64,000 bases of DNA from Bacteroidota bacterium (GTDB lineage Bacteria; Bacteroidota; Bacteroidia; Bacteroidales; UBA4417), in NCBI GenBank assembly GCA_022711175.1, contig JAKLFM010000003.1:52709-116708 (forward strand), read 5' to 3'. The position numbers and the translations under genes were made by a program. The stretch's first letter is position 1, and the number at the start of each line of letters is the position of its first letter. Under the pieces are notes generated by a model, which was not told where the DNA came from, did no database searches, and saw only the letters and a program-made list of their open reading frames with translations. Below, one piece after another: positions 11-14,660 of this stretch.

Positions 11-3000
11 ATGACATTAAAATCTACTCTTACTCAATGTTCTCTTATTCTGACTATATGCCTTTCGGTACTAACCCTTGGCGGTTTTGCTGAAAAGGTC
101 ACCTATCAGGAGAACTGGAACAACCCTGGAATTTCGATCAGGCAACAAAGCGCCCAGGGTGTCAGCATTGGCTTTTCGATCAAGGAATTTGACATTGCCA
201 CCCGTGCCTTTAACGGTGAAATGATGCAGGAAATTGAACTCACCGGCAACTTTTTACCAAATGCCGAAGGCGCTCCCAATTTACCGGTAATCAGCAGGTA
301 CATAGCCTTGCCACAAGGAGCACAGGCAACAGTTGTAGTTAAAAGGCAACGCACCGAGGTAATCGACAATGTAAGTCTTGCACCGGCACCACGCATCCCT
401 CTCGATACCGAACGCGGGCCTTTGCAGTACAACAAGGATCTGAGTATATATTCGAGCAACACTTATTATCCGCAGCAACCGGTTATTCTTTCACAGCCCT
501 CAAAACTGCGTGGTGTTGACGTTGTACTTGTCAGCATTACTCCTTACCAATACAACCCTGTTACCAAACAACTGGTTGTAATCCGCGATCTTGATGTGGA
601 GGTGAATTTTACCGGCGGTAACGGACATTTTGGTGAAGACCGTTTGCGCAGTCGTTACTGGGATCCTATTTTGAAAGATAACATTTTCAACAGCGAATCG
701 CTGCCAGCAATTGATTACAGCGCCCGTATGGCTTATCAGTCAAAGAATCGCGAAACCGGCTGCGAATATCTGATCATTGTTCCCAACGATGCAATATTCA
801 GCCAGTGGGCCGATACTATCAAGAAATTTCGCACAGAACAAGGAATTCTAACAAAAATTGTCACTTTGCAGGAGATTGGCGGCAACACAACAACAGCCAT
901 CGAGAATTATATTAACAATGCCTATAACAACTGGGATATTCCTCCTGCCGCATTCCTCATGATGGCCGATCATGGCACCAATGCTTCAACCCAGATTCCC
1001 GCTCCCATTTGGGACAGCTACTGCGTTTCGGATAATATTTATGCCGACGTTGATAACGACGACATGCCTGAAATAGCTCCTGCCCGCATGACTGCTCAAA
1101 ATGCAGATCACCTGAAAACCATGGTTGAAAAGTTTATCGGTTATGAAACCAATCCGCCTACAAGTGCATCGTTCTATAACAGTCCGATTACAGCCCTTGG
1201 CTGGCAAACCGAACGTTGGTTCCAGATTTGCTCAGAAGTTGTTGGCGGTTTCTGGAAAAATTCATTGGGCAAAACGCCTATACGCATCAACGCTGTTTAC
1301 CAGGGCAACCCGGCTTCCGACCCCTGGTCAACGGCCAGTAATACTGCTACGGTGGTTAATTATTTCGGCCCTACCGGTTGTGCTTACATACCGGCTACTC
1401 CACAGGAACTTGGTGGTTTCGACGGTGGCACTCCAGCCATGGTGAACCAGGCACTTAACAATGGCTCTTTTATGCTTCAACACCGCGATCATGGCTTTGA
1501 ACAAGGCTGGGGCGAACCAGGTTACACTTCTACGCACATTTCGAGTCTTACCAATGTTGGTAAACTTTCATACATCATGTCGGTTAACTGCCTTACCGGG
1601 AAATACAATTACAGCAGTGAGGTTTTTGCCGAAAAGTTCCATCGCTACAAGTATAATAATCAATATGCCGGGGCTGTCGGTATACTTGCCGCATCCGAAG
1701 TGTCGTATTCATTCGTTAACGATGCTTTCGTTTGGGGTATGTATGATAATATGTGGCCCAACTTCCTGCCATCATACGGAGCGCTTTACGAAGAAAGAGA
1801 CCTGACGCCGGCTTTTGGAATGTGTGCAGGAAAAATATTTCTTCAGCAGTCTTCGTGGCCATATAACAGCGGAGATAAAGAAGTTACCTATCACCTGTTT
1901 CATCATCATGGTGATGCCTTCCTGAATGTCTATTCCGAAGTTCCACAGCAACTTACTGTCAGTCATAACGAAGTTATGCTGCAAGGCCTCAGCACTTTTG
2001 ATGTAACGGCAAACGAAGGTGCATTCATTGCCCTTACTGCTAATGGTCAGATCATTGGTACAGGTGTTGGGACCGGCAGTCCTGTTGCCATACCGGTTAA
2101 TACACCTGCTATTGGAACCATTGTGAAGATTGTTGTAACCAAGCAGAATTATTTCAGGCATACATCAACCGTTATTGTTATTTCACCCGAAAATCCTTAT
2201 GTGATAACATCGGGAGTGAGTGTTGACGATCCAGCAGGCAACAATAACCAAAAACTCGACTTCAGCGAAACAGCTTTCCTTGCGCTAACGCAGGAAAACT
2301 TAGGCAATACCGATTCGCAAAATACAAATGTAACCATCAGTCTAAGTGATCCTTATGTTACCATTGTTGATAATACCGAAAACTATGGAACAGTTCCGGC
2401 ACATCAGTCGGTCACCGTTAACCAGGGATTCCAGGTACAGGTTGCCAGCAATATTCCCAATGGATACACTGCGAACGTGCAAGCGACGGCCACCAATGGT
2501 ATTGATACATGGGTAAGCAATTTTGCCCTCATCTGTTTTGCACCTCAGTTATCGGCTACTACCCTGGTAATTGATGATTCGCAGAACGGCAACAACAATG
2601 GACGGCTCGATGCAGGTGAGACCGCAGATGTAATAATCTCAAACATCAACTCAGGGGGTGCCACTGCTCTAAATGCCATTGGAACAATGCTCGCAGGTAG
2701 TAACTGGGTTACAGTTAATACCGGTACCTATACAATTGGCGATATTGCACCACTTTCAGCACCTACAGCTGTATTTAATATTACAGTAAATCCCAACACA
2801 CCAGCAGGTTTACAAATCCCGCTCCAATATGCTGTTACTGCCGGCGCTTATTCGGCTGAACGCATATATAATATACAAGCAGGCATTATAGTTGAAGATT
2901 GGGAAACCGGCGATTTTTCGAAATTCAGTTGGATTGGCGGTGGCAACCAACCCTGGACCATCACCACTACTCAGCCTTATGAAGGCACTTATTCTGCAAA

Positions 3001-4861
3001 ATCAGGGACAATTAATAATGGTCAAACATCACAGCTGATCCTCAACTTCCAGGTACCGGCCAACGACACTGTAAGTTTCTATTACAAAACCTCATCGGAA
3101 GCATCAAAGGATAAACTGCGCTTTTATATTGATGTAAATGAGAAAGGTTCGTATAGTGGCAGTACCAGCTGGACCAACGCGAAATTCCCGATTACCGCCG
3201 GGTCTCACACCCTGAAATGGATTTACAGCAAAGATGCCTCCGGAAGTTCGGGCAGCGACTGTGCCTGGGTTGATTTCATCGTATTGCCCGCATCACCCAC
3301 AACCGCCTGCATTGCCGGCCCCGATGGATATTCATGCCAGGGTGAACCCTATCAGTGCAATGCTGAAGCCGTTAACTACAACACAATAGCATGGTCAACT
3401 TCAGGAAGCGGTACATTCAGCAATTCAACCATTCTGAATCCTGTTTATACACCCAGTGCAGGCGATATTGCCGATGGCCAGGTAACATTAACGGTGGCTG
3501 CTACAGGCGTTTCGGGTACTTCGGTTGACAACATGATACTCGCCTTTATGGATCCCGCTACCGCCAATGCCGGCGCTAACGGTTATACCTGCGAATCAGG
3601 GTATTATGTTCATTCGGGCGCTTCGGCTTCAAATTACAATTCGGTTTACTGGACAACAAGCGGTACCGGTACATTCAATAATATAAACCAGTTAAATCCT
3701 GTTTACACCCCGAGTGCTGCCGACGCCGACGCAGGCAGCGTTACCCTCACACTTAATGCAGTTAACCTGGGATGCGGAAACACTTCCTCAGCGATTACGC
3801 TTACTATTTATCAATCGCCCGAACCATCTGTTGCCGGCGAAATAACACTGTGTCAGCAATCGCAAAATGTACCGTATTCAACACCTTTTGTTGCCGGTAA
3901 CTCTTATAACTGGACAGTTACAGGTGGAGAAATGGTAGCCGGTACCAATCCCAACGAAATAACAGTGAACTGGAATGAAGCCGGTATTGGAAGCGTAACA
4001 GTAGCTGAGACAACGCCAAATAATTGTATGACTTCATCGGCTGTGAATGTGGTGGTGAATGAAATTCCGATGCCCACAATTAATGGCAGTGATCAACTTT
4101 GTGCAGGTGAAACCATTACCTATACAACACCACTGGTTGCAGGCAACTCATACAACTGGGAAGCAGCAGGTGCTGTAATTTCAGCAGGCCAGGGAACCAA
4201 CGAAGTACAGGTACTGTTCGAAAACCCGGGCAGTTATAACGTAACGGTGACCGAAACCAACGGTACAACATTATGTGGCAATACCGACATTGCTGCTGTT
4301 GCTGTAAACGCTCAGCCCTCGGTGCCTGAAACACCTCAGGGTGACGACCGCGCCGACTTATACTATGTCACTGCAACTGATTTGACTGTTACGGCTGTTC
4401 CTTATGCCGCTGAATACACATGGCAAATCTCCCCTGCCAATGCAGGTACAATTGCCAATACCGGAAATGTAGCCACAATAACCTGGAATTCATCCTTCCG
4501 TGGCACTGCTGAAGTTACCGTTAAAACCGGAAATAACTGCGGCGAAAGCACCTGGTCGCCAGTAAAATCAATTGAGGTTCTTAACTCAACAGGAATCATA
4601 GAACCAGGTAAGGCTTTGGGTATTAGCATTACACCTAATCCGAACGACGGTAAATTCTACCTCACCGTTTCCACCCCCGGTATCCAAAACTTCGACTACC
4701 AGATCGTTAATTCAAATGGTGCTGTAGTTCTGGAAAACCGCAATCTGCAATCAATGGGCAAATATGCTGCTCAACTTGATACAAAGCTTGCCCCTGGCGT
4801 TTACAGCCTGATTGTGACCACAGTATCGGGTCAGGAAACTGAGCGCTTCATTGTTAAATAA
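11..4861 (+). CDS. Large secreted peptidase C25 (gingipain-family cysteine peptidase) with a MAM-like jelly-roll domain, repeated Ig/PKD-like modules and a T9SS C-terminal sorting domain
   Basis: 1616-aa ORF with an N-terminal signal peptide (MTLKSTLTQCSLILTICLSVLTLGGFA). The His...Cys catalytic dyad has gingipain-like spacing: HRDHG (His codon nt 1490-1492) and SVNCLTG (Cys codon nt 1589-1591). The C-terminal ~80 aa (ITPNPNDGKFYL...GVYSLIVTT...RFIVK) fit the T9SS CTD pattern. A hairpin terminator follows. Confidence 0.9.
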   Translation: MTLKSTLTQCSLILTICLSVLTLGGFAEKVTYQENWNNPGISIRQQSAQGVSIGFSIKEFDIATRAFNGEMMQEIELTGNFLPNAEGAPNLPVISRYIALPQGAQATVVVKRQRTEVIDNVSLAPAPRIPLDTERGPLQYNKDLSIYSSNTYYPQQPVILSQPSKLRGVDVVLVSITPYQYNPVTKQLVVIRDLDVEVNFTGGNGHFGEDRLRSRYWDPILKDNIFNSESLPAIDYSARMAYQSKNRETGCEYLIIVPNDAIFSQWADTIKKFRTEQGILTKIVTLQEIGGNTTTAIENYINNAYNNWDIPPAAFLMMADHGTNASTQIPAPIWDSYCVSDNIYADVDNDDMPEIAPARMTAQNADHLKTMVEKFIGYETNPPTSASFYNSPITALGWQTERWFQICSEVVGGFWKNSLGKTPIRINAVYQGNPASDPWSTASNTATVVNYFGPTGCAYIPATPQELGGFDGGTPAMVNQALNNGSFMLQHRDHGFEQGWGEPGYTSTHISSLTNVGKLSYIMSVNCLTGKYNYSSEVFAEKFHRYKYNNQYAGAVGILAASEVSYSFVNDAFVWGMYDNMWPNFLPSYGALYEERDLTPAFGMCAGKIFLQQSSWPYNSGDKEVTYHLFHHHGDAFLNVYSEVPQQLTVSHNEVMLQGLSTFDVTANEGAFIALTANGQIIGTGVGTGSPVAIPVNTPAIGTIVKIVVTKQNYFRHTSTVIVISPENPYVITSGVSVDDPAGNNNQKLDFSETAFLALTQENLGNTDSQNTNVTISLSDPYVTIVDNTENYGTVPAHQSVTVNQGFQVQVASNIPNGYTANVQATATNGIDTWVSNFALICFAPQLSATTLVIDDSQNGNNNGRLDAGETADVIISNINSGGATALNAIGTMLAGSNWVTVNTGTYTIGDIAPLSAPTAVFNITVNPNTPAGLQIPLQYAVTAGAYSAERIYNIQAGIIVEDWETGDFSKFSWIGGGNQPWTITTTQPYEGTYSAKSGTINNGQTSQLILNFQVPANDTVSFYYKTSSEASKDKLRFYIDVNEKGSYSGSTSWTNAKFPITAGSHTLKWIYSKDASGSSGSDCAWVDFIVLPASPTTACIAGPDGYSCQGEPYQCNAEAVNYNTIAWSTSGSGTFSNSTILNPVYTPSAGDIADGQVTLTVAATGVSGTSVDNMILAFMDPATANAGANGYTCESGYYVHSGASASNYNSVYWTTSGTGTFNNINQLNPVYTPSAADADAGSVTLTLNAVNLGCGNTSSAITLTIYQSPEPSVAGEITLCQQSQNVPYSTPFVAGNSYNWTVTGGEMVAGTNPNEITVNWNEAGIGSVTVAETTPNNCMTSSAVNVVVNEIPMPTINGSDQLCAGETITYTTPLVAGNSYNWEAAGAVISAGQGTNEVQVLFENPGSYNVTVTETNGTTLCGNTDIAAVAVNAQPSVPETPQGDDRADLYYVTATDLTVTAVPYAAEYTWQISPANAGTIANTGNVATITWNSSFRGTAEVTVKTGNNCGESTWSPVKSIEVLNSTGIIEPGKALGISITPNPNDGKFYLTVSTPGIQNFDYQIVNSNGAVVLENRNLQSMGKYAAQLDTKLAPGVYSLIVTTVSGQETERFIVK

Positions 4862-4880
4862 TTTTTATCCTGATATGTTG

Positions 4881-4915
4881 AAAAGCCGGTGACGAATCAC
4901 CGGCTTTTTATTTTT
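4881..4915 (+). terminator. Rho-independent terminator after the first C25 gene
   Basis: Perfect 12-bp stem aaaagccggtga / tcaccggctttt (4881-4892 / 4897-4908) with loop cgaa, followed by a T-rich tail. Confidence 0.7.
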
Positions 4916-5037
4916 CTGCCTCACTCATCAGTACCTGAATGTAAAAACAAAGTTTTTTTCAATTAATATGTATTCAGACTATTACTTCCGGGTAAAGGAG
5001 CTATTAATTAATACACTGCTCGTATACTCCTTTACTC

Positions 5038-8000
5038 ATGAAGAAACTCCTGGTACTCAACCTGCTCGTTGTACTTATCTTATCCTTACGGATAGATGGT
5101 TTCGGAGCAAAAACATGGGTGGAAATTACCCCCGGCACTCCCCGGCCTGCAACCGTCCTCACTCGTTCAACAGCTGATGGAGGCTTTATTGTAGATGTTT
5201 CTTTTACCGGATTTTATCTTAACCCTGTTGTTATCAATAGCAGTGAATATCAACAGGTAAGCTTGCCGGGAGCATATCCCCTGCTTGATGCCGGCAATCC
5301 CGACCTGCCTTTCCTCAATGCAACGCTAAATATCCCGGCAACAGGCCACTTTATGAGCCGAATTAGCAGTGCCGAATATGTTGAGTATGAAAATGTTCTG
5401 ATTGCCCCGTCAAAAGGCAATCTCCCGATTACCGGGGAAGCTTCAACAACACCTTTTAATTTTAGCGATAGCTATAATGACGATTTATTTTACCCCGGCG
5501 CCCTAACTACCGATCAACAGGCATTTATCCTGCGTAATCTGCGCGGCCAGTCATTCAACTTTCAGCCATTCCAATATAATCCGGTCACCCGCACATTAAG
5601 GGTTTATTACAGTCTGTCAGTAGAGGTATTCAAATCAGGCAACCAGGGTGACAATGAACTCACTACATACGACAGCAATATAAAAGGTTTCAGGGAGATG
5701 GCTGCTTCGTTTCAATCGTGTTTTGCCAACAATCAAACACGTTCAGGCCAGCTGCCCGACGAAAATGGTAGTATGCTGGTAGTCTGTCCGGCTGATTTCA
5801 TGTCTGCAATTAAACCTTTTACCGATTGGAAAAATGCGTGCGGAATCACAACCAGTGTGGTTGATGCCGGACTTTTCAGCACCCCTGAAGAGCTTCGCAA
5901 CTTCATTCAGCAACACTACTATGCTGTCGGCAACCTGGCTTACCTGTTATTGGTCGGCGATGCTGATCAGGTTCCTCCGTTTATGATTGGCGAAGATGCC
6001 TCTGATAATTACTATGGCTACCTGGCCGGCGACGATCATTATCCCGAAGTTTATGTCGGACGTTTTTCGGCTGAAAATGCTGATGAACTCATGACCCAGG
6101 TAAACCGGACACTTGAATACGAAAAAGCAACAGACGGTGATTCGAAATATCTTTCGGCGGTTACAGGAGTTGCATCAACACTTGAATATGGTGATGATAA
6201 TGAAAGCGACTTCCAGCATATAAGGAACCTGCTGAATACACTTAAGGATTCAGGATACGATAACCTGGCCGAACTTTATGATGGCTCGCAGGGCGGCTTA
6301 GATGCCGATGGTTATCCCACAGCACAAATGGCTTCTGACCGTTTCAACCAGGGAACTGGGGTGATTTTGTATTCCGGACATGGCGGAATAAATTCCTGGC
6401 TTACATCACAAATTTCTTCATCACTCGTTAACGGGCTAAACAATCATGGCCGTTATCCTTTTATCTGGTCAGTGGCCTGCGAAACAGGCAATTTTGTTGA
6501 TCATACCTGCCTGGCTGAAACCTGGCTCCGCGCAACCGACGATAACGGTAAACCTGCCGGTGCCGTTGCTGCCCTTATGGCTTCGGGTGTACAAACTTCG
6601 ATGCCGCCAATGGAAGCCCAGGATGAAATGGTAAACCAGCTTGCAAAGGGCACCCTGAAAACTTTTGGCGGCGTTTCGCACAGCGGGCTCATCAGTATGA
6701 ACAACGTTTATGGCAGATTCGGTTATGCGATGTCCGATTCATGGATTCTCTTCGGCGACCCATCGCTTACTCTGCGTACCAAAGCCCCGGATTCAATCCA
6801 TGCAAACCACAAACCCTACATTGGTAAAGGCAACATCATGTTTACTGTAAGTGCTAATGTTGCCAATGGATCAGCCTGCCTTTCGCAGGATGGTATAACA
6901 CTTGGATATGCCCCGGTGGTGCAGGGCAATGCACAAATCGTACTCAATGTACCGGCAGCAGGCACTTCGATGCTGCTTACCATAACTTCGGCCAATTACT
7001 TTCCCTATTCGGCAGAGCTCGAAGTAATGAACACGCCTGCTGATGCTGTTGCCGTTACCCCTGTAAATCACAGCAAACTCGTTCCTGTAAACCCGGTCTT
7101 TGAATGGAATCCCGGTGACGGTGCAAAGCCTGATAACTACAGGTTTTTTATTGGAACTGACTATCCTCCGACCAACATAGTCAATGGAGCCACAATCATC
7201 AATGCCAGCTATAGTCCTGAGATTCGCCTCCACTACAACACCACCTATTACTGGCGTGTTGAATCATCAAACAGCCATGGAAATGCTGCAGGTATTATCA
7301 ATGATTTCACCACAGTGTTTCGTCCGGATGAGGATTTTGAAGCAGGCTCAATCAAGAGTTCCCTGGCATGGATCAGCGAAGGTGGTTCATGGACAACAGA
7401 CAATCACGGTGCTTTTGACGGCGATTATTGTGGCCGTTCGGCCGAAATTCCTGATAATGGTTTCTCGTCGCTAAAATATACCTGCAATGTGATTTCGTGC
7501 GATTTTGTGAGCTTCTGGAGAAAGACATCGACCGAGAGCAATCGCGATAAACTTATTTTCCTGGTTGACGGACTTATCATCAATGAATGGAGTGGCGAAA
7601 CCACCTGGGGCCGCGAGTCATATTCCATTGCACCCGGACTGCACGAACTTGAATGGCGATATACCAAAGATGTGAACATTAATTGCGGAGAAGATGCGGT
7701 GTGGCTCGATGATATTCACCTTCCGGTTCACGATGCAATGCTGGCCTCAACAACGCCTGTTAGCAGTGTTTGTTCAGGAATGTGCTTCTCGCCTGAATCA
7801 TCAGCAGCAAACTTTAACAGCATTACCTGGCAAACATCAGGCGATGGCACTTTTAACGATGCAAACCTGCTTACCCCGCAATACACACCTGGCCCCAACG
7901 ATCTGTCAACCGGTGCGTTTCTGTTAACCATGAATGTTCAGGGTTATGAAGGATGTCCCGATTTTGCCGGGCTTGTGATGAGCATGGTCAATCCCGTTCC

Positions 8001-8490
8001 GCAAATTAACCTGCCGGCTGATACAATGGCCAATGCCGATGGCAGCCTGTTTCTCGATGGCACCTGCGAAAACGGCGTGAGTTACGAATGGATCCAACCG
8101 GGTGTTAATACTCCTTACATCACGGTAAATGAATCGCTCGCTGTTGATAACCAAATTGAGCTGACCCTCAAAGTCAGCAATGAATTCGGCTGCTCCTCCG
8201 AGAAAACCACCACAGTCCACTTTGTAAAACCCGACGAAAAGCCTTCGTTCGAAATATACCCGAACCCTTGTACCGATTACTTCACCATTCAGCCTCAGAA
8301 CGGCTTTATGCCATTAAACCGCCTGTATATGGTTAATGCCCAGGGAGCCATTTTATGGCAACAGGATTCGGAGATGGTGATAAACGGAAGCTTAACTTTC
8401 GATTTGCCACAATTAGCTTCGGGCTTGTATATGGTTGTAGCCGAAACCGATGGTGGCACTGTTGCACAACCCATACTCATCAAACCATAA
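5038..8490 (+). CDS. Secreted peptidase C25 (gingipain-family cysteine peptidase) with a MAM-like domain and T9SS C-terminal sorting domain
   Basis: 1150-aa ORF with signal peptide MKKLLVLNLLVVLILSL. The segment SGHGGINSWLTSQ...YPFIWSVACETGNF closely parallels the gingipain R catalytic His/Cys segment as I recall it (His codon nt 6379-6381, Cys codon nt 6478-6480). The C-terminus (YPNPCTDYFTIQP...GLYMVVAETDGG...ILIKP) fits a T9SS CTD. Confidence 0.9.
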   Translation: MKKLLVLNLLVVLILSLRIDGFGAKTWVEITPGTPRPATVLTRSTADGGFIVDVSFTGFYLNPVVINSSEYQQVSLPGAYPLLDAGNPDLPFLNATLNIPATGHFMSRISSAEYVEYENVLIAPSKGNLPITGEASTTPFNFSDSYNDDLFYPGALTTDQQAFILRNLRGQSFNFQPFQYNPVTRTLRVYYSLSVEVFKSGNQGDNELTTYDSNIKGFREMAASFQSCFANNQTRSGQLPDENGSMLVVCPADFMSAIKPFTDWKNACGITTSVVDAGLFSTPEELRNFIQQHYYAVGNLAYLLLVGDADQVPPFMIGEDASDNYYGYLAGDDHYPEVYVGRFSAENADELMTQVNRTLEYEKATDGDSKYLSAVTGVASTLEYGDDNESDFQHIRNLLNTLKDSGYDNLAELYDGSQGGLDADGYPTAQMASDRFNQGTGVILYSGHGGINSWLTSQISSSLVNGLNNHGRYPFIWSVACETGNFVDHTCLAETWLRATDDNGKPAGAVAALMASGVQTSMPPMEAQDEMVNQLAKGTLKTFGGVSHSGLISMNNVYGRFGYAMSDSWILFGDPSLTLRTKAPDSIHANHKPYIGKGNIMFTVSANVANGSACLSQDGITLGYAPVVQGNAQIVLNVPAAGTSMLLTITSANYFPYSAELEVMNTPADAVAVTPVNHSKLVPVNPVFEWNPGDGAKPDNYRFFIGTDYPPTNIVNGATIINASYSPEIRLHYNTTYYWRVESSNSHGNAAGIINDFTTVFRPDEDFEAGSIKSSLAWISEGGSWTTDNHGAFDGDYCGRSAEIPDNGFSSLKYTCNVISCDFVSFWRKTSTESNRDKLIFLVDGLIINEWSGETTWGRESYSIAPGLHELEWRYTKDVNINCGEDAVWLDDIHLPVHDAMLASTTPVSSVCSGMCFSPESSAANFNSITWQTSGDGTFNDANLLTPQYTPGPNDLSTGAFLLTMNVQGYEGCPDFAGLVMSMVNPVPQINLPADTMANADGSLFLDGTCENGVSYEWIQPGVNTPYITVNESLAVDNQIELTLKVSNEFGCSSEKTTTVHFVKPDEKPSFEIYPNPCTDYFTIQPQNGFMPLNRLYMVNAQGAILWQQDSEMVINGSLTFDLPQLASGLYMVVAETDGGTVAQPILIKP

Positions 8491-8516
8491 CTCGTAATAC
8501 TCCACCTACTTCCTTC

Positions 8517-8549
8517 AAAGCCGGTACTGAAACCGGCTTTACTATTTTA
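8517..8549 (+). terminator. Probable rho-independent terminator after the second C25 gene
   Basis: 9-bp stem aaagccggt / accggcttt (8517-8525 / 8532-8540) with loop actgaa. The T tail is weak and interrupted (actatttta). Confidence 0.5.
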
Positions 8550-8617
8550 TGGCTTTTCCGTTCATACGAATTTCACCGCGAATGAATGGCCAATGCTGCG
8601 AAGAGATGAAAAATAGC

Positions 8618-8625
8618 TACTTTTG
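8618..8625 (+). promoter_or_regulatory. Bacteroidota-type -7 promoter element (TAnnTTTG) upstream of the deiminase gene
   Basis: tacttttg matches TAnnTTTG, 24 nt upstream of the ATG at 8649. Confidence 0.5.
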
Positions 8626-8648
8626 ACCTATACTCCAAACTGAACTCT

Positions 8649-10667
8649 ATGAGGAAAAAATTGTACCTCGCCATCTGCATCCTGCTTTCAGCAATTCCGG
8701 GCTTTGCTCAGCAAACCGATCCAAACAACGGGCTCAAACACTGGATGACTCCTGAAGAGGCATTACAGCGTGATTTGATTGGACGCGGTTTTGTTGAAAC
8801 TGATCCTCCTACCGGTATTATTCGCAATGTTGAGGAATTTGGCCCTGCCGAGGGTGTTCTCATCCGCTATCCTTTCGGAATACCTCTTAACCTGATCAAA
8901 GAAATGGCCGAAAGCGACACCGTTACTACCATTGTTTCAAGTTCATCGCAACAGGCTACCGTCACTTCGCAGTATCAGGCCAACGGGATGAACCTGAACC
9001 ATTGCAAATTTCTTATTGCTCCTACAAATACTTACTGGACAAGAGATTATGGCCCATGGTATGTTACTTATGGCGACAAGGAAGTTGGCATTGTTGATTT
9101 CCCTTATAACCGCCCGCGTCCCAACGACGATGAAATCCCGAAGAAAGTTGCCACTTCATTAGGAATAGAGTGGTTTGGTATGAATGTAATTCATACCGGC
9201 GGCAATTATATGACCGATGGAACCGGCCAGGCTTCTTCAACAACACTTGTTTGGGATGAGAATCCCTCGCAAACACATGAGCAAATAGCTCAAAAAGTGC
9301 ATGATTATCTGGGGATTGACAATTACATGGTTGTTGCCGATCCAAACGGAACGTACATTGACCATATCGACTGCTGGGGTAAGTTTCTTGCACCAGATAA
9401 AGTGCTAATCCGTAAAGTTCCGTTTTCTCATCCGCAGTACTCATTAATCGAGAGCACTGCTGCTTATTATGCAACGCAAAACTCATCGTACGGCACACCT
9501 TACCGGGTTTACCGCGTGAATACGCCTAATGATGAACCTTATACCAACTCATATATCCTCAACAGGAAAGTATTTGTTCCCATCATGGGAAACAGCAATG
9601 ATGCCGCAGCCATACAGGCATACCAGGCTGCCATGCCGGGATATGAAGTGCTGGGTTTCCTTGGCAATCCATCAACTCCCTGGGAATCTACCGATGCATT
9701 GCATTGCCGTACCCATGAGATGGCCGATCGGGGTATGCTATACATTGAACATTTGCCCCTGACGGGTGTAAAACCTGCACAGTTTGAATTCGACATTGAT
9801 GCCGAAATCACCGCTTTCAGTAATCAACCTGTTTATACCGATTCAACCTGGGTTATATACAAGGTGAATTCAGCCGGGTGGGACACTCTTGCACTTACCC
9901 ATATTAGTGGTAATCACTGGCATACTGCTCTGCCGGGACAAATGGAAGGCGATACTGTATCATACTTTATCACGGCAGCCGATGCTTCGGGACGCAGGCA
10001 GAACCACCCGTATATCGGCGCCCCCGATCCGCATGTTTTTATCATCAAAATTTCAAATCCGCCGGATGTGGTTTGCGCACCCGACACCCTGAAGTTTACT
10101 ACATGGGAGGATATGTTTTATGGCAAATCATTCATTACCAGGAACTTTTCAACACAGCCGGTAGTAATCAGCCATATCGACCAGGAAGACCTGATTCCAT
10201 TTTCCTGGAACATTGATCCATGGAATATAAGTTTGCCATACACGATAAACAGCGGCGATTCGCTTGCACTAAATGTGAGGATTAATATACCAGCAAGCAG
10301 GAGCGATGTGCAGTGCGACAGTCTTCGAGTGGTAACCAGCGAATCTTTGGTACATAACATTCAGCTCTGTCTCGACCTTGATTTGTTCACCGGGACAAGC
10401 CAATTACCGGAATCGCAATCCGGATTGAAGGTTTTCCCAAATCCTGTAAATGGAGAAGCCACAATACAGCTTCCTGCCTCGCTTATCGGGAACTCTCACA
10501 TTGAGGTATTTTCATCAGACGGCACACTTATGCAAACGCTTAATGTTAATAGCAAGAACAGTCATCAGATGAACTGGACTACAGCTTCGTTACCGGAAGG
10601 AATTTATTTGTTAAAATTGAATGACAGGAATCACGTCAGCACAACAAAGGTGTTGATAAACAGATAG
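8649..10667 (+). CDS. Secreted Porphyromonas-type peptidylarginine deiminase (PPAD-like, PAD_porph/agmatine deiminase superfamily) with Ig-like region and T9SS C-terminal domain
   Basis: 672-aa ORF with signal peptide MRKKLYLAICILLSAIPGFAQ. Guanidino-modifying enzyme motifs are present: YWTRDYGPW, YNRPRPNDDE, GGNYMTDGTG, DHIDCWGK and the catalytic TDALHCRTHE. The C-terminus (VFPNPVNGEATIQLP...GIYLLKLNDRNH...VLINR) fits a T9SS CTD. Confidence 0.85.
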   Translation: MRKKLYLAICILLSAIPGFAQQTDPNNGLKHWMTPEEALQRDLIGRGFVETDPPTGIIRNVEEFGPAEGVLIRYPFGIPLNLIKEMAESDTVTTIVSSSSQQATVTSQYQANGMNLNHCKFLIAPTNTYWTRDYGPWYVTYGDKEVGIVDFPYNRPRPNDDEIPKKVATSLGIEWFGMNVIHTGGNYMTDGTGQASSTTLVWDENPSQTHEQIAQKVHDYLGIDNYMVVADPNGTYIDHIDCWGKFLAPDKVLIRKVPFSHPQYSLIESTAAYYATQNSSYGTPYRVYRVNTPNDEPYTNSYILNRKVFVPIMGNSNDAAAIQAYQAAMPGYEVLGFLGNPSTPWESTDALHCRTHEMADRGMLYIEHLPLTGVKPAQFEFDIDAEITAFSNQPVYTDSTWVIYKVNSAGWDTLALTHISGNHWHTALPGQMEGDTVSYFITAADASGRRQNHPYIGAPDPHVFIIKISNPPDVVCAPDTLKFTTWEDMFYGKSFITRNFSTQPVVISHIDQEDLIPFSWNIDPWNISLPYTINSGDSLALNVRINIPASRSDVQCDSLRVVTSESLVHNIQLCLDLDLFTGTSQLPESQSGLKVFPNPVNGEATIQLPASLIGNSHIEVFSSDGTLMQTLNVNSKNSHQMNWTTASLPEGIYLLKLNDRNHVSTTKVLINR

Positions 10668-10873: not shown

Positions 10874-12202
10874 TTGCTAAAGAGAAAAGATGTACAAGCC
10901 ATTAAAAAAGGTGACCGCAGGGTTGTTAATGGCTGGGTAATGTACGACTGGGCTAATTCGGTTTACCAGCTTACCATTGCCTCCGCGATTTTCCCAATTT
11001 ACTATAATTCAGTAACCCGATCCGATGGCGGTTTTGTCGTTTCGTTTTTCGGGGCACCGGTTATTAACACAGTGCTCTATTCGTGGGCAATAGCAGCGGC
11101 ATATCTCATTGTTGCCGTGGGCTCGCCCTTGTTATCATCCATGGCCGATTATACCGGCCGCCGGAAAGGATTTATGAGAACATTCACCATAATTGGCGCT
11201 GTTGCCTGTGGTGCATTGTTCTTTTTCAACAAGGACACCGTTGAGCTGGGTATCATTGCTTTTACCCTTGGAACCATTGGTTACGGCGGGAGCATCGTTT
11301 TTTACAATTCGTTCCTGCCGGTTATTGCCCGCCCCGAAGACCAGGACCGTATTAGCGCCAGGGGTTATTCGATGGGTTACCTCGGGGGTGTGGTTTTGTT
11401 GCTGATCAACCTGCTTATGATTATGAAACCTTTGTGGTTCGGCTTACCCACTGACAGCAGTCTGCCCGCAAGGATTTCGTTTGTTACCGTTTTCCTTTGG
11501 TGGCTGGGGTTTTCGCAAATCACTTTCAGCAGGCTGCCCAAATACACTTTCCGTAAAAGGATGCACCGGGCAAAAGTGCTGACAAACGGCTATCGCGAAC
11601 TACGGCTGGTATTTAAACAGGTACGTAAGTCGTTTCAGCTGCGTACTTACCTGCTGGGCTTCTTTTTTATGATGATGGGGTTGCTTACAACCATGTTTAT
11701 GGCCGCAACTTTTGGCGAGAAAGAGGTGGGCGTGCCCGAAGATATGCTCATACTTACAATCCTCATCATACAACTTGTTGGTATGTTCGGCGCATGGCTG
11801 TTTTCGCGCTTATCAGGCAAAATCGGTAACCTCAGGGCGCTGGTAATTTCAATCGTGACGTGGGTGCTTATATGCGTATATGCATATACCATCAAAGATA
11901 CCATAGGTTTTATGATTGCGGCTTTCTTTATCGGTATTGTAATGGGCGGTTCGCAATCGCTTGCCCGGTCAACCTATTCAAAAATGCTGCCCGAAACTAC
12001 CGACCATACATCTTTTTTTAGTTTTTACGATGTAATGGAAAAACTGGCTACAGTAGCAGGTACCTTCAGTTTTGGAATTATTGAAGCCATCACCGGCAGT
12101 ATGCGCTTTTCGGTACTTGCTATAACCGGTTTCTTTATTGTTTCGCTGATTTTCATGTTGTTACTGCTTCGCAGAAACGAAAGAAACAAAGTGGTGATCT
12201 GA
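10874..12202 (+). CDS. MFS transporter, UMF1 (Atg22-like) family
   Basis: 442-aa polytopic membrane protein. The N-terminal VNGWVMYDWANSVYQ motif is typical of the UMF1 family. The start appears to be TTG at 10874, since there is no in-frame ATG before the conserved motif. Confidence 0.75.
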   Translation: MLKRKDVQAIKKGDRRVVNGWVMYDWANSVYQLTIASAIFPIYYNSVTRSDGGFVVSFFGAPVINTVLYSWAIAAAYLIVAVGSPLLSSMADYTGRRKGFMRTFTIIGAVACGALFFFNKDTVELGIIAFTLGTIGYGGSIVFYNSFLPVIARPEDQDRISARGYSMGYLGGVVLLLINLLMIMKPLWFGLPTDSSLPARISFVTVFLWWLGFSQITFSRLPKYTFRKRMHRAKVLTNGYRELRLVFKQVRKSFQLRTYLLGFFFMMMGLLTTMFMAATFGEKEVGVPEDMLILTILIIQLVGMFGAWLFSRLSGKIGNLRALVISIVTWVLICVYAYTIKDTIGFMIAAFFIGIVMGGSQSLARSTYSKMLPETTDHTSFFSFYDVMEKLATVAGTFSFGIIEAITGSMRFSVLAITGFFIVSLIFMLLLLRRNERNKVVI

Positions 12203-12391
12203 TAATCTCGCGAATTTGTACTCCTCTGCATTTGATTTCAAACCAAGCCGGCAATACTTTTTGCAGGTTCAAAAGAAGAACTTTCACAGACGGGGAAGTT
12301 GTCTCTAACGTTCAGATCTTTTATTCCGGACTGGCTATCACTGGCCCTGGCCTAATTAAGGATTTCGACCGGCTTAGAATGGTGTGTATCT

Positions 12392-12428
12392 TAAAAAATA
12401 AAAAACCGGCTCCTCGCGAAGCCGGTTT
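12392..12428 (-). terminator. Rho-independent terminator for the minus-strand LVIVD gene
   Basis: 9-bp stem aaaccggct / agccggttt (12403-12411 / 12420-12428). The plus-strand A-run at 12394-12405 gives a T-run after the hairpin on the minus strand. Confidence 0.6.
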
Positions 12429-12444
12429 CATCCCAGGTAACCAA

Positions 12445-13749
12445 TTAACCACCAATGGGAATTTTGCTGATCAGGGTTATATTATTGAGGTTTGAATAAT
12501 CGTATTGATAAATTCCGTCAGCCGCCAGCAGAATGAGTACATTCCCCATAGGAATAACATCGTGTGCCGTTACATCGGTGAAGGTTTTCAGCAGGTGTTC
12601 GTCAATTCTCAGCCGGTCGGTGGCATCGTAAATCTTAAGTCCCGCACTGCCATCGCAGATAAACAGTTTGTTGTTATCTATTCCCAGCCCCCAGGGCTCG
12701 GTCATGGCATAGCTTTTAACAAGTTGCGGGCTTGTAATCACGTGAATGTCTATCACTTCCATCAGGTTTTGCCAGTTTCCGCAACGGTTGCCTGCCCGTT
12801 CGGTCACATAGGCATAACCATCCTGCACAACAACGGGGTCGCAGCTTTGAAAGTGATTATATTCCGAAACATATGTCGGATTCGAGGGTACTGAAATATC
12901 ATATACGAGCATGCCCGTTTGGGTTCCGATGAACAGATAAATGCCTTCGATAAACACCGTTTCGGCCACCCTTTGAAGCGCTATTTTTTTACCAACAACA
13001 GGATTTTCGGGCGATGCAATATCAATCACCTGCATATCGGTTTGGTTTAAGCCATAGAATTGTCCGTTATTGATGATGAAACGGGCAAGCGAGCCGCCGA
13101 CACCGATGGTTTGGGTAGAAGTGAATGATCCACCTCCACCACCGCTAATGGCATTGGTTTCGGTCTTGGCGAACGAATTGAGGGCAAAATCATAGAAATA
13201 AACAGGGTGCGAATAATCCTCTATCTCTTCTGTAATTGATTGTACTTTCCATCCGGTGATCACACCTTTGCTTTGGTCAATTGAAGCGATGGGGTACGAA
13301 GAGTTTTCGCTGTTCAGTTCGGGAATGGTGTAAGGGAAAATGTCCTTTATCCTGGCCACTTCCCGCGGGCTTTCCATGTCGCTGATGTCAATCACCACCA
13401 GGTCAACATAGCTGTCGGCATATAGATAATTGCCAATTATGGCAAGGTCAACATTGCCGGGAATCCAGATTGTAGTCACGTTCAGCGGGTTTGCCGGGTC
13501 GGAGTTATCAAAAACGTGTATTCCCTTGTATTTTTCGTTTACATACAGGTAGTTGTCCTTAATATATATCTTCCCCTGAACTTCTACCTCGGTGGCTGCC
13601 GATGACTTAACCGGCTGTCGCATTTCGTCGTACGACATATACTCAGGCACATTGGCGGTATAAGTGCGCTTTTCGATAAATGTATCTTTGCAGCCTGTCA
13701 AAAAGCCTGCAATCGCCAATACCAGGAAAGCTAATTGTTTTGTTTTCAT
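12445..13749 (-). CDS. LVIVD-repeat beta-propeller lipoprotein
   Basis: 434 aa with a lipoprotein signal (MKTKQLAFLVLAIAGFLTGC). Repeated LVIVD-type strands are visible: DLVVIDISDMESP, MQVIDIASPENP, MLVYDISVPSNP, LMEVIDIHVITSP, LKIYDATD. Confidence 0.7.
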   Translation of the reverse strand: MKTKQLAFLVLAIAGFLTGCKDTFIEKRTYTANVPEYMSYDEMRQPVKSSAATEVEVQGKIYIKDNYLYVNEKYKGIHVFDNSDPANPLNVTTIWIPGNVDLAIIGNYLYADSYVDLVVIDISDMESPREVARIKDIFPYTIPELNSENSSYPIASIDQSKGVITGWKVQSITEEIEDYSHPVYFYDFALNSFAKTETNAISGGGGGSFTSTQTIGVGGSLARFIINNGQFYGLNQTDMQVIDIASPENPVVGKKIALQRVAETVFIEGIYLFIGTQTGMLVYDISVPSNPTYVSEYNHFQSCDPVVVQDGYAYVTERAGNRCGNWQNLMEVIDIHVITSPQLVKSYAMTEPWGLGIDNNKLFICDGSAGLKIYDATDRLRIDEHLLKTFTDVTAHDVIPMGNVLILLAADGIYQYDYSNLNNITLISKIPIGG

Positions 13750-13807
13750 CGTTTTATGTTGAGTTAGGGTTTACTGAATAATGATGGTACAACCTTGAAG
13801 AAAGTTT

Positions 13808-14536
13808 TCAGTTGAACACAATTCCAACCGAAAGAGCAATGCGGTTAAATTTGTCGATACGCTCGGTTCGGTACTCCTCAGACCACCAGTAATAATATTG
13901 GTTGACTGTTTTGGTTTGTTGATAACGATATCCTATGCTGAAAATGAAAGCATTGCGATTGGCAAAGTCTTTCCGCAGCCCAATGCCGGCTCCAAAAAGA
14001 GGACCTCCGTGAAATTTGGTGTTTTCGCCTTCCTGGTTAGTCGCCAATGGCAAAGCAAAACCGGCATGAGAATAAATAAATGGTGTAAATCCGCCTTTGA
14101 GGATGTTGTACCTGACATCGGCAAAAACAGGAAGCCCGGCAGTTTTAAAACATTCAACCCCAATCCCTGCCCCTGCTGATAGCCTGCAAGGGAACCTGTA
14201 TGAAGTAATGGTGGTAAATCCTCCGTTCGAAGCACTGCCACCAAAAATTGACACAAGCGGTGTTACTTCAACCGCAGCAGGCTTCGATTCTCTCTCTCTG
14301 AATGGGAGTTTTTCACGAAGAAGCAGATGATCTATCTCTTCTTCAGGAATTACGACAATATTTGAACCAACAATTTCAATTTTTGTGTACCTGCCTATTT
14401 CATTTTCAATGATCCTGCCCCGCAGAATACTTCCGTTTTTGAGGTAAACTGCATCCTGCTTTATTGGCTGTGCTTTGAGCATATTCATCGAAAGTAAGAT
14501 CACAGACAAAACAAGGGTGATTAACGATAATTTCAT
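13808..14536 (-). CDS. Hypothetical secreted protein, probable outer-membrane beta-barrel
   Basis: 242 aa with signal peptide MKLSLITLVLSVILLSMNMLKAQ. The C-terminal half has alternating Gly/aromatic-rich strands and ends in an aromatic residue region (GIVFN). No family was recognised. Confidence 0.5.
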   Translation of the reverse strand: MKLSLITLVLSVILLSMNMLKAQPIKQDAVYLKNGSILRGRIIENEIGRYTKIEIVGSNIVVIPEEEIDHLLLREKLPFRERESKPAAVEVTPLVSIFGGSASNGGFTTITSYRFPCRLSAGAGIGVECFKTAGLPVFADVRYNILKGGFTPFIYSHAGFALPLATNQEGENTKFHGGPLFGAGIGLRKDFANRNAFIFSIGYRYQQTKTVNQYYYWWSEEYRTERIDKFNRIALSVGIVFN

Positions 14537-14637: not shown

Positions 14638-14660
14638 AATTCAAGCTAGTCTCAAATCAG

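What the first reader, a model, noticed from the sequence alone, without database searches (positions are those of the whole stretch)
11..10667. Two gingipain-family C25 peptidases followed directly by a PPAD-type peptidylarginine deiminase, all T9SS cargo
Three consecutive same-strand genes (11-4861, 5038-8490, 8649-10667) each encode a signal peptide and a T9SS C-terminal sorting domain. The first two keep the gingipain His/Cys catalytic dyad. The third matches the Porphyromonas-type peptidylarginine deiminase rather than a cytosolic agmatine deiminase.

In Porphyromonas gingivalis, Arg-gingipains create C-terminal arginines that PPAD then citrullinates. As far as I recall, those genes are not adjacent there, and PPAD has been treated as nearly genus-specific. 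A physically linked protease-plus-deiminase surface module in a different Bacteroidota lineage would therefore be a notable candidate proteolysis-coupled citrullination locus.

One caveat applies. Hairpin terminators at 4881-4915 and 8517-8549 and a -7 box at 8618-8625 suggest three separate transcription units, not one operon.
Basis: partly seen in the sequence, partly recalled or inferred. Interest (0 to 1): 0.75.

Follow-up and report, generated by a model that had tools for sequence, protein, structure and literature searches.

The report
Gingipain-like proteases beside a PPAD-type deiminase
An uncultured sludge bacterium (family Lentimicrobiaceae) carries, side by side, secreted relatives of the gum-disease enzymes Arg-gingipain and PPAD. 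This pairing is conserved across its relatives, which suggests that the [quoted passage not shown] chemistry is an old protein-feeding tool and not a Porphyromonas speciality.

Summary
Three same-strand ORFs sit at 11-4861, 5038-8490 and 8649-10667. Each has a signal-peptide-like N-terminus and a type-A T9SS C-terminal sorting domain.

- **Gene 3** is a true PPAD relative. It is 51% identical to P. gingivalis PPAD over 416 residues, scoring 481 bits against at most 61 bits for any agmatine deiminase. It keeps every catalytic residue and every residue that binds the substrate's C-terminal carboxylate.
- **Gene 2** is RgpB-like (37% identity). It keeps His/Cys and the arginine-binding Asp163 of the S1 (P1 side-chain) pocket.
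- **Gene 1** is a divergent C25 peptidase. It keeps His/Cys, but no Asp163 equivalent could be identified.

The window edge cuts the cluster. On the source contig, a third C25 gene, an Omp28-like cargo protein and an M14 carboxypeptidase lie upstream.

The C25-deiminase adjacency occurs in all 15 informative genomes of one Lentimicrobiaceae clade. It recurs in other arrangements in four further loci. It is absent from about 55 more distant homologues.

PPAD-type genes are not rare: at least 574 species genomes and thousands of metagenomic clusters carry them. The searchable literature still lists only three Porphyromonas species.

Verdict: a new member of a known kind, with a conserved and apparently unreported gene linkage. 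Function is inferred, not shown.

The parts
11..4861 (+). P1: a 1616-aa divergent C25 cysteine peptidase and T9SS cargo. It comprises a signal peptide, Propeptide_C25 (aa 34-201), Peptidase_C25 (aa 253-639) with His494/Cys527, the C25 Ig-like domain (aa 645-715), a long C-terminal region of jelly-roll and repeated Ig-like modules, and the sorting domain (aa 1542-1615).
   Evidence: It reaches only E 1e-19 against RgpB, in a split hit. The Asp163 column reads Thr/Ser in a weak alignment. Orthologues of 65-90% identity occupy the same position in 10 related genomes.
4879..4916 (+). Intrinsic-terminator-like hairpin after P1: a 14-bp stem (6 G-C pairs), a 4-nt loop and a T-rich tail.
5038..8490 (+). 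P2: a 1150-aa RgpB-like C25 peptidase and T9SS cargo. It comprises a signal peptide, a prodomain (aa 61-218), a catalytic domain (aa 246-579) with Asp391 (= RgpB Asp163), His448 and Cys481, an Ig-like domain (aa 599-660), a C-terminal extension, and the sorting domain (aa 1073-1146).
   Evidence: It scores E 2e-71 against 1cvr and is 37% identical to RgpB. Asp163, Gly210, His211, Gly212, Cys244 and Gln282 are invariant in 15 orthologues. Trp284 is replaced by Ser. An Arg lies at the pro/mature junction (QTR|SGQLPDENG).
8517..8549 (+). Terminator-like hairpin after P2: a 9-bp stem, a 6-nt loop and a weaker T tail.
8618..8625 (+). Bacteroidota-type -7 promoter box, TACTTTTG (consensus TAnnTTTG), 24 nt upstream of the P3 start codon.
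   Evidence: It is the only + strand match in the two intergenic gaps of the three-gene region, and none lies upstream of P2. Window-wide the motif is not above chance, but many copies sit just upstream of start codons.
8649..10667 (+). P3: a 672-aa PPAD-type deiminase and T9SS cargo. It comprises a signal peptide ending ...GFA|QQ, a short pro-segment ending in Arg (LIGR|GFVETDPP), a catalytic domain (aa 48-359), an Ig-like domain (aa 360-465), an extra beta-sandwich (aa 466-594) that P. gingivalis PPAD lacks, and the sorting domain (aa 595-670).
   Evidence: It is 51% identical to PPAD over 416 aa. Trp130, Asp133, Arg155, Arg157, Tyr236, His239, Asp241, Asn300 and Cys353 correspond to PPAD W127, D130, R152, R154, Y233, H236, D238, N297 and C351.
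10874..12202 (+). ATG22/UMF1-type MFS transporter (442 aa). It is a conserved downstream neighbour of the deiminase and a possible part of the module.
   Evidence: Pfam ATG22, E 7e-67. It lies directly downstream of the deiminase on the same strand in 13 related loci across two clades, at 69-90% identity.

Best explanation
This is a conserved extracellular protein-degradation locus of a Lentimicrobiaceae (Bacteroidales) anaerobe. Its products are exported by Sec, then moved across the outer membrane and probably anchored on the cell surface by the type IX secretion system.

P2 is made as a zymogen with a gingipain-type prodomain. After activation it cuts proteins after arginine, or after basic residues more generally, using the His448/Cys481 dyad and the Asp391 S1 carboxylate. 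P1, and a third paralogue just outside the window, are further C25 endopeptidases of unknown P1 preference.

P3 is a PPAD-type exo-deiminase. Arg155, Arg157 and Tyr236 clamp the free C-terminal carboxylate of a peptide, Asp133 and Asp241 hold the guanidinium group, and Cys353/His239/Asn300 hydrolyse it to citrulline plus ammonia. The peptides ending in Arg that P2 releases are therefore its natural substrates, as with Rgp and PPAD in P. gingivalis.

Shown here: domain architectures, residue conservation and conserved synteny.

Inferred: enzymatic specificities, surface location, and that the two activities act in sequence.

The genes are probably transcribed separately but kept together by selection.
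For: **P3 is PPAD-like.** It scores 481 bits (E 4e-143) against PPAD structures over both the catalytic and Ig domains, and at most 61 bits against agmatine deiminases. It scores 66 bits on the agmatine-deiminase equivalog TIGR03380, whose cutoff is 382. All nine catalytic and carboxylate-binding residues are kept and are invariant in 16 homologues. Their roles are taken from PMC4893104 and PMC4487231. Foldseek's best hit is PPAD at 6.5e-45.

**P2 is RgpB-like.** It scores E 2e-71 against RgpB. Asp163, Gly210, His211, Gly212, Cys244 and Gln282 are invariant in 15 orthologues, with roles from PMC4357240. An Arg or Lys sits at the pro/mature junction in every orthologue where the junction could be located, and the inhibitory-loop Arg126 is kept in 10 of 14 orthologues.

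**All three are T9SS cargo.** The sorting domain scores above its cutoff in each.

**Synteny.** A C25 gene lies directly upstream of the deiminase in 15 of 15 informative genomes of one clade, and it is the P2 type in 14 of them. Independent arrangements exist: an Rgp-like gene downstream in L071 and L080, a C25 gene upstream in L084, and C25 plus an S8 peptidase upstream in L076.

**Genomic context fits a peptide fermenter.** The window also holds two S46 DPP7-type peptidases, an M64 peptidase, a Porphyromonas-type tryptophanase and butyrate-pathway genes.
Against: - No biochemical data exist for any non-Porphyromonas member.
- In the window's own P2, the Trp284 lid of the S1 pocket is Ser and the prodomain's inhibitory Arg126 column is Ile. 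Most orthologues have Lys, not Arg, at the pro/mature junction. Strict Arg specificity is therefore unproven.
- P1 has no identifiable Asp163 equivalent.
- Terminator-like hairpins separate the genes, so they are not one operon.
- About 55 of 80 homologous loci have only housekeeping neighbours. The deiminase therefore does not need an adjacent C25 gene.
- Within the linked clade the adjacency could be one inherited event.
- The AF2 model is only of moderate quality (pLDDT 69.7) and its active-site loops are of low confidence.
Confidence: 0.68

Rival explanations
1. The adjacency is non-specific. T9SS cargo and peptidase genes simply cluster in these genomes, and the arrangement was inherited once in a Lentimicrobiaceae clade. 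Under this view P3 works independently of the neighbouring C25 enzymes. It might act on free arginine, or on any C-terminal Arg made by other proteases, to release ammonia or buffer pH.
For: - Each gene has its own terminator-like hairpin, and P3 has its own -7 box.
- The neighbourhood also holds unrelated T9SS cargo, such as an Omp28-like protein and BNR proteins.
- Most PPAD-type genes (about 55 of 80 loci) have no peptidase neighbour.
- All main-clade loci form one branch of the tree.
- PPAD itself also accepts free L-arginine (PMC4893104).
Against: - The linkage recurs in at least three other gene orders, on separate branches (L071/L080, L084, L076).
- The gene directly adjacent is almost always the Rgp-like, Asp163-bearing paralogue (14 of 15) and not a random cargo gene.
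- The neighbourhood survives rearrangements that move the M14 gene from upstream to downstream.
Confidence: 0.25
2. P2 and its orthologues are not Arg-specific. They might be Lys-specific or prefer basic residues broadly. They would then supply few substrates for a strictly Arg-directed deiminase, and the pairing would have another rationale, such as P2 processing the P3 precursor.
For: - Trp284 is replaced by Ser or Thr in the whole linked clade.
- The pro/mature junction is Lys in most orthologues, and the window's P2 lacks the inhibitory-loop Arg.
- P3 has an Arg just before its mature N-terminus, as PPAD has Arg43 (the PPAD position is from my memory). This site could be a P2 processing site.
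Against: - Asp163 is the only side chain that bonds the P1 guanidinium in RgpB (PMC4357240), and it is invariant.
- P2 scores far closer to Rgp (2e-71) than to Kgp (3e-15).
- Ten of 14 orthologues keep Arg at the inhibitory-loop position.
- The basic residue before the mature start of P3 is Leu, Met or Ile in most members of the linked clade.
Confidence: 0.15
3. P3 is a mis-named agmatine deiminase of polyamine metabolism.
For: NCBI and JGI name its homologues "agmatine deiminase family protein". Pfam PF04371 covers both kinds of enzyme.
Against: - It has a signal peptide and a T9SS sorting domain, so it is not cytosolic.
- It scores 66 bits on TIGR03380 (cutoff 382) and 55 bits on NF010070 (cutoff 483).
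- It scores 481 bits against PPAD and at most 61 bits against agmatine deiminases.
- It keeps the two arginines and the tyrosine that bind a carboxylate, which agmatine lacks.
Confidence: 0.02

Closest known systems
Porphyromonas gingivalis peptidylarginine deiminase (PPAD, PG1424; PDB 4YT9, 4YTB, 4YTG, 5AK7, 6I0X)
   Same: - P3 is 51% identical over the catalytic plus Ig-like domains.
- The catalytic residues D130, H236, D238, N297 and C351 are identical.
- The carboxylate and side-chain binders W127, R152, R154 and Y233 are identical, and the Michaelis loop (the active-site loop that closes over the substrate) is nearly identical (DPNGTYIDH versus DPNGEYINH).
- The layout is the same: a Sec signal followed by Gln, a short pro-segment ending in Arg, and a type-A T9SS sorting domain.
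   Different: - P3 is 672 aa against 556 aa for PPAD (the PPAD length is stated in PMC4893104).
- It carries an extra beta-sandwich of about 130 aa between the Ig domain and the sorting domain.
- It comes from a different family (Lentimicrobiaceae, from a sludge or environmental metagenome) and is not host-associated.
- It sits next to an Rgp-like gene. In P. gingivalis, PPAD (PG1424), RgpB (PG0506), RgpA (PG2024) and Kgp (PG1844) are dispersed.
- Its activity is untested.
Arg-gingipain B (RgpB, PG0506; PDB 1CVR, 4IEF)
   Same: - P2 has the same order of prodomain, catalytic domain, Ig-like domain and sorting domain.
- It is 37% identical over the catalytic plus Ig domains.
- Asp163, Gly210, His211, Gly212, Cys244 and Gln282 are conserved.
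- An Arg lies at the pro/mature junction.
   Different: - The Trp284 lid is Ser, and Glu152 is Leu.
- The inhibitory-loop Arg126 is Ile in this copy.
- An extra region of about 410 aa (jelly-roll-like and Ig-like modules) lies between the Ig domain and the sorting domain.
- Pfam found no haemagglutinin/adhesin domains.
- P1 is much more distant, with large insertions and no Asp163 equivalent.
The Rgp-PPAD two-step in P. gingivalis (Rgp exposes C-terminal Arg, PPAD citrullinates it), with CPG70 (PG0232) as the Arg/Lys carboxypeptidase
   Same: Homologues of both enzymes are present and are T9SS cargo. An M14 carboxypeptidase with a sorting domain stays close to the locus in the window's organism and in 6 related genomes.
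   Different: Here the genes are physically linked and the linkage is conserved. In P. gingivalis they are scattered. The setting is environmental, so any role is nutritional or physiological and not virulence. The specificity of the M14 enzyme is untested.

Membership tests
PPAD-type (Porphyromonas-type) peptidylarginine deiminase | The five guanidino-modifying catalytic residues: Asp130, His236, Asp238, Asn297 and Cys351. | tested here: met
   They correspond to P3 Asp133, His239, Asp241, Asn300 and Cys353. All are invariant in the 16-sequence alignment. Roles are from PMC4893104.
PPAD-type (Porphyromonas-type) peptidylarginine deiminase | The determinants of C-terminal-Arg (exo) specificity: Arg152 and Arg154 bind the free carboxylate, Tyr233 sits on the Michaelis loop, and Trp127 forms the pocket wall. 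| tested here: met
   They correspond to P3 Arg155, Arg157, Tyr236 and Trp130 and are invariant in alignment A1.
PPAD-type (Porphyromonas-type) peptidylarginine deiminase | An Ig-like domain packed against the catalytic domain, which other guanidino-modifying enzymes lack. | tested here: met
   The phmmer alignment to 4yt9 and 6i0x runs through P3 residue 465, equal to PPAD chain residue 418. The model shows beta strands from 364 to 466.
PPAD-type (Porphyromonas-type) peptidylarginine deiminase | Secreted T9SS cargo, with a signal peptide and a type-A sorting domain. | tested here: met
   TIGR04183 scores 42.5 bits (cutoff 23) and PF18962 scores 44.7 bits. The signal-like N-terminus was judged by eye only.
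PPAD-type (Porphyromonas-type) peptidylarginine deiminase | Citrullination of C-terminal arginine in peptides, without a calcium requirement. | not testable with these tools
   This needs an enzyme assay.
Agmatine deiminase (AguA) | Score above the curated equivalog or subfamily cutoffs (TIGR03380, NF010070), and a cytosolic location. | tested here: not met
   P3 scores 66.2 bits against a cutoff of 381.8, and 55 bits against 483. PDB agmatine deiminases score at most 61 bits, against 481 bits for PPAD. P3 also has export signals.
Arg-gingipain (C25, Rgp type) | The architecture Propeptide_C25 + Peptidase_C25 + Ig-like domain + sorting domain, with the His211/Cys244 dyad. | tested here: met
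   Both P1 and P2 meet this. The dyad is P2 His448/Cys481 and P1 His494/Cys527.
Arg-gingipain (C25, Rgp type) | The S1 pocket Asp163, which forms a salt bridge with the P1 arginine. | tested here: met
   P2 has Asp391, invariant in 15 P2-type orthologues. This applies to P2 only. In P1 the aligned column is Thr/Ser, in a poorly aligned region with large insertions, so the result for P1 is not met or inconclusive.
Arg-gingipain (C25, Rgp type) | The Trp284 lid over the S1 pocket. | tested here: not met
   It is Ser in P2, and Ser or Thr throughout the linked clade. Trp is kept only in the L071 and L080 homologues.
Arg-gingipain (C25, Rgp type) | Prodomain inhibitory-loop Arg126, and Arg at the pro/mature junction (Arg229). 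| tested here: inconclusive
   The junction Arg is present (QTR|SGQLPDENG). The Arg126 column is Ile in the window's P2, but Arg in 10 of 14 orthologues. Most orthologues have Lys at the junction.
Arg-gingipain (C25, Rgp type) | Exclusive cleavage after Arg. | not testable with these tools
   This needs an enzyme assay or cleavage-site profiling.
Single operon | Co-transcription of the three genes. | tested here: inconclusive
   The intergenic gaps are 176 and 158 nt, with terminator-like hairpins after P1 and P2. A -7 box lies before P3 only. No RNA data are available.

The most novel reading that the evidence does not exclude
The Rgp-type protease and PPAD-type deiminase pair, together with an M14 carboxypeptidase and an ATG22-type MFS transporter, may be an ancestral nutrient-acquisition module of proteolytic Bacteroidales. 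In this reading, citrullination of newly exposed C-terminal arginines is a dedicated processing step. It could neutralise the peptide end to route peptides to uptake, protect them from the carboxypeptidase, or release ammonia. The role of PPAD in P. gingivalis virulence and autoimmunity would then be a later re-use of this housekeeping chemistry.
Probability: 0.3. Interest if true: 0.75.

Novelty: new member of a known kind. Interest (0 to 1): 0.55.

Why it matters
PPAD is studied almost only as a P. gingivalis virulence factor linked to rheumatoid arthritis. Reviews up to 2026 call it unique, or list homologues only in P. gulae and P. loveana. What PPAD does for the bacterium itself remains unsettled.

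This work shows three things:
- PPAD-type enzymes with the full set of C-terminal-Arg-binding residues are common in free-living Bacteroidales.
- In Lentimicrobiaceae they are kept next to an Rgp-like protease, a transporter and a carboxypeptidase.
- These organisms live outside any host.

Together these give a host-free setting and concrete gene partners for testing the native physiological role of bacterial C-terminal citrullination. They also mean that database labels of "agmatine deiminase family protein" on secreted Bacteroidales proteins are probably wrong.

Tried and rejected
1. **Agmatine-deiminase reading of P3.** Rejected on curated cutoffs, PDB scores, residues and export signals.
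2. **The Arg before the mature N-terminus of P3 as evidence for Rgp processing.** In 67 homologues the position is Arg or Lys in 47. It is Leu, Met or Ile in most members of the C25-linked clade, so it is not diagnostic.
3. **AlphaFold2 model of P3 from a 16-sequence alignment.** Quality was only moderate (pLDDT 69.7, pTM 0.47), with low confidence at the active-site loops. Foldseek merely repeats the sequence result, and the extra domain (aa 466-594) matched nothing more specific than generic Ig/FN3 sandwiches.
4. **A conserved partner in the non-linked clade.** The flanking genes there are housekeeping genes on the opposite strand, a lytic transglycosylase and a class II (Asp/Lys/Asn-type) aminoacyl-tRNA synthetase. 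They offer no functional clue.
5. **Assigning P1 specificity by alignment to RgpB.** The region around Asp163 has large insertions and the alignment is unreliable.
6. **Calling the upstream M14 enzyme basic-residue-specific like CPG70.** Its best PDB match is carboxypeptidase D domain II. By my own reading of the alignment, the specificity Asp of CPD does not appear conserved, so I make no claim.
7. **Sigma-70 promoter scan.** The number of hits was at chance level, and this promoter type is not appropriate for Bacteroidota.
8. **Literature searches for non-Porphyromonas PPAD homologues or Lentimicrobium gingipains.** These found nothing. Only open-access papers were searched.

Full report
**1. 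Observation**

Pfam assigns P1 and P2 the domains Propeptide_C25, Peptidase_C25, the C25 Ig-like domain and the T9SS sorting domain. It assigns P3 PAD_porph plus the sorting domain. NCBIfam's type-A sorting-domain model TIGR04183 scores above its cutoff in all three. The N-termini look like Sec signal peptides, and in P3 the predicted cleavage site is followed by Gln-Gln, as is usual for T9SS cargo. This was judged by eye, because no predictor was available.

Terminator-like hairpins follow P1 (4879-4910, a 14-bp stem plus a T run) and P2 (8517-8540, a 9-bp stem with a weaker tail). A Bacteroidota -7 box, TACTTTTG, lies at 8618-8625, 24 nt before the P3 start. No such box precedes P2.

**2. 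The deiminase**

Pfam PF04371 covers both PPAD and agmatine deiminases, so it cannot decide between them. Other evidence does.

- Against all PDB sequences, P3 matches P. gingivalis PPAD at E 4e-143 (481 bits) over residues 48-465, which spans the catalytic domain and the PPAD-specific Ig-like domain. The best non-PPAD entry (1xkn) scores 61 bits, and genuine agmatine deiminases score 20-35 bits.
- On the curated agmatine-deiminase models it scores 66 and 55 bits, against cutoffs of 382 and 483.
- A pairwise alignment gives 51% identity over 416 residues.
- The alignment conserves the catalytic residues Asp130, His236, Asp238, Asn297 and Cys351. It also conserves Trp127, Arg152, Arg154 and Tyr233, which hold the substrate's side chain and free C-terminal carboxylate. 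The roles come from the two crystal-structure papers. All nine residues are invariant in a 16-sequence alignment of homologues.
- An AlphaFold2 model was of moderate quality only (pLDDT 69.7). Foldseek ranks PPAD first (6.5e-45, against 1e-11 to 5e-14 for agmatine-deiminase-type structures), which adds little to the sequence evidence.

P3 differs from PPAD in having an extra beta-sandwich of about 130 residues (aa 466-594) before the sorting domain.

**3. The two proteases**

P2 is close to RgpB: E 2e-71 against 1cvr, compared with 3e-15 against Kgp, and 37% identity over the catalytic plus Ig domains. I aligned 15 P2-type orthologues with RgpB. His211, Cys244, Gly210, Gly212 and Gln282 are invariant. 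So is Asp163, the only side chain that bonds the P1 arginine in RgpB (PMC4357240). In the window's P2 the corresponding residues are Asp391, His448 and Cys481.

Three features differ from RgpB:
- The Trp284 lid is Ser.
- Glu152 is Leu.
- The prodomain's inhibitory-loop Arg126 column is Ile in this copy, although it is Arg in 10 of 14 orthologues.

The pro/mature junction is basic in every orthologue where it could be located. It is Arg here and Lys in most others. P2 is therefore very probably specific for basic P1 residues and probably for Arg, but strict Rgp-like specificity is not proven.

P1 is a divergent C25 paralogue (E 1e-19 against RgpB, in a split hit). It keeps His494 and Cys527, has large insertions and has no identifiable Asp163 equivalent. 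Its specificity is unknown.

**4. Source and true extent of the locus**

The exact P3 and P1 proteins occur on contig Ga0116241_10003016 of JGI metagenome 3300010429. The closest genomes are Lentimicrobiaceae MAGs, with P3 at 71-73%, P1 at 88% and the downstream transporter at 90% identity. Lentimicrobiaceae is in the same order as Porphyromonas (Bacteroidales) but a different family.

The window begins 10 nt before P1 and so cuts the cluster. Upstream on the contig lie, in order:
- an M14 carboxypeptidase with a carboxypeptidase-D-type regulatory domain and a sorting domain;
- an Omp28-like T9SS cargo protein;
- a DUF4153 protein;
- a third C25 peptidase (1146 aa), a P1-type paralogue.

Elsewhere the window encodes two DPP7-type S46 peptidases, an M64 peptidase, a Porphyromonas-type tryptophanase and butyrate-pathway enzymes. 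This is the gene set of a peptide fermenter.

**5. Is the adjacency conserved?**

A scan of one genome per GTDB species found at least 574 genomes with a relative of P3, and the best 80 loci were retrieved with 10-kb flanks. I searched them by tblastn and blastp with the C25 domains and built a neighbour-joining tree of the deiminases. The tree is midpoint-rooted and has no bootstrap support.

All loci closest to the window (L005-L021, at least 57% identity) form one clade. Each of the 15 members with enough upstream sequence has a C25 gene directly upstream. In 14 of them it is the Rgp-like P2 type, and 10 also carry the P1 type.

The linkage also appears in different gene orders on other branches:
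- In L071 and L080, a longer deiminase (about 1010 aa) is followed by an Rgp-like gene that retains Trp284.
- In L084, a truncated C25 gene lies directly upstream.
- In L076 (Lentimicrobium sp.), the order is C25, response regulator, S8 peptidase with sorting domain, deiminase, Omp85, ATG22 transporter, M3 peptidase.

An ATG22/UMF1-type MFS transporter follows the deiminase in 13 loci. An M14 carboxypeptidase homologous to the one upstream of the window lies just beyond the transporter in six loci.

In contrast, about 55 more distant homologues, from Prolixibacteraceae and other Bacteroidales, sit between housekeeping genes on the opposite strand.

**6. How rare is the deiminase?**

It is not rare in the databases. 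At least 120 full-length homologues of 47-73% identity were listed, and 4,861 90%-identity clusters scored E <= 1e-30. At that database size, the level of similarity that agmatine deiminases show to P3 cannot reach this threshold. Where a name is given, almost all are labelled "agmatine deiminase family protein" or a close variant.

All 80 retrieved homologues are 44-53% identical to P. gingivalis PPAD, and PPAD nests inside this environmental radiation.

The literature I could search still calls PPAD unique, or lists homologues only in P. gulae and P. loveana. No paper connected Lentimicrobium with gingipains or described non-Porphyromonas PPAD homologues.

**7. Interpretation**

The best-supported reading is a conserved locus for extracellular protein breakdown on the cell surface. 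P2 exposes C-terminal arginines, and P3 converts them to citrulline, releasing ammonia. Further C25 peptidases, a carboxypeptidase and a transporter may belong to the same module. The parts list and the synteny are shown here. The specificities, the sequential action and the physiological purpose are inferred.

The main rival is that these are merely co-inherited, clustered T9SS cargo genes without enzyme-to-enzyme coupling. The separate terminators and the many unlinked homologues favour this rival. The recurrence of the linkage in several gene orders, and the consistent choice of the Asp163-bearing paralogue as the immediate neighbour, argue against it.

**8. Verdict**

This is a new member of known kinds (PPAD-type deiminase, Rgp-type gingipain) with a conserved gene linkage that appears to be unreported. 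It is of moderate interest. It does not reveal new chemistry. It does move the Rgp-PPAD axis out of the Porphyromonas/virulence frame and provides a tractable, host-free system for asking what C-terminal citrullination is for.

Noticed in passing
L085:1-9633 (same JGI contig, immediately upstream of window position 1): The window edge cuts the cluster. Upstream lie an M14 carboxypeptidase with a CPD-type regulatory domain and a T9SS sorting domain, an Omp28-like sorting-domain protein, a DUF4153 protein, and a third C25 peptidase (1146 aa, 32% identical to P1). Homologues of the M14 gene (52-55% identity) lie just downstream of the deiminase-transporter pair in six related genomes. This recalls CPG70, the Arg/Lys carboxypeptidase of P. 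gingivalis.
   Followed up: partly
window 10874-12202 (+): An ATG22/UMF1-type MFS transporter lies directly downstream of the deiminase. The same arrangement occurs in 13 related loci across two clades. Its substrate is unknown, and it could be a functional partner of the deiminase.
   Followed up: partly
window 3300-4630 (P1 residues about 1100-1540): The C-terminal half of P1 holds tandem Ig-like repeats of about 80 aa. They match the repeats of GhpA, the Aureispira 'grappling hook' protein (PDB 9flp, E 1e-27), and a phage tail protein (9c2d). All three C25 proteins of the cluster also share a jelly-roll-like module (EDFE[TA]GD...W...PW...YSA.SG) before these repeats.
   Followed up: no
window 14661-16040 (-): A tryptophanase scores above the cutoff of the NCBIfam equivalog built on P. 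gingivalis TnaA (PG1401): 815 bits against a cutoff of 750. In P. gingivalis the locus tags of TnaA (PG1401) and PPAD (PG1424) are also fairly close. This may be coincidence.
   Followed up: no
window 42259-44481 (+) and 46968-49118 (-); 17878-19146 (+); 19287-21281 (+): The window holds two S46 dipeptidyl-peptidases (DPP7-type, below the equivalog cutoff), an M64 peptidase, and a phosphotransbutyrylase/butyrate-kinase pair. This is a Porphyromonas-like peptide-fermenting gene set in an environmental Lentimicrobiaceae genome.
   Followed up: partly
window 58000-60000, gene 58428-59663 (-): GC content drops sharply to 0.33, against about 0.46 elsewhere. The drop spans a BNR-repeat protein with a T9SS sorting domain, which may be recently acquired DNA.
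   Followed up: no
P3 residues 231-239 (window 9339-9365): The Michaelis loop of P3 reads DPNGTYIDH. It carries two of the three substitutions (E232T, N235D) that define the P. gingivalis clinical PPAD variant crystallised as 6I0X, which was the top PDB hit.
   Followed up: no
P. gingivalis W83 table in PMC5445135: In P. gingivalis the RefSeq tags of PPAD (PG_RS06255) and periodontain, a C10 cysteine peptidase and T9SS cargo (PG_RS06260), are consecutive. PPAD therefore seems to have a secreted cysteine-protease neighbour there too, though of another family. I did not verify this on the genome sequence.
   Followed up: no
L069, L070, L073, L075, L079 (about 12000-15600, +) and L010:1688-5653: In another branch of the deiminase family, the same-strand downstream neighbour is a BNR-repeat protein of about 1,190 aa that shares the C-terminal modules of P1 and P2. 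In L010 a BNR protein with a sorting domain takes the place of P1.
   Followed up: partly
L084 (record titled Candidatus Cloacimonadota bacterium): A full PPAD-type gene with a sorting domain, and a C25 gene upstream of it, sit on a contig binned as Cloacimonadota. T9SS cargo is a Bacteroidota trait, so this contig is probably mis-binned.
   Followed up: no
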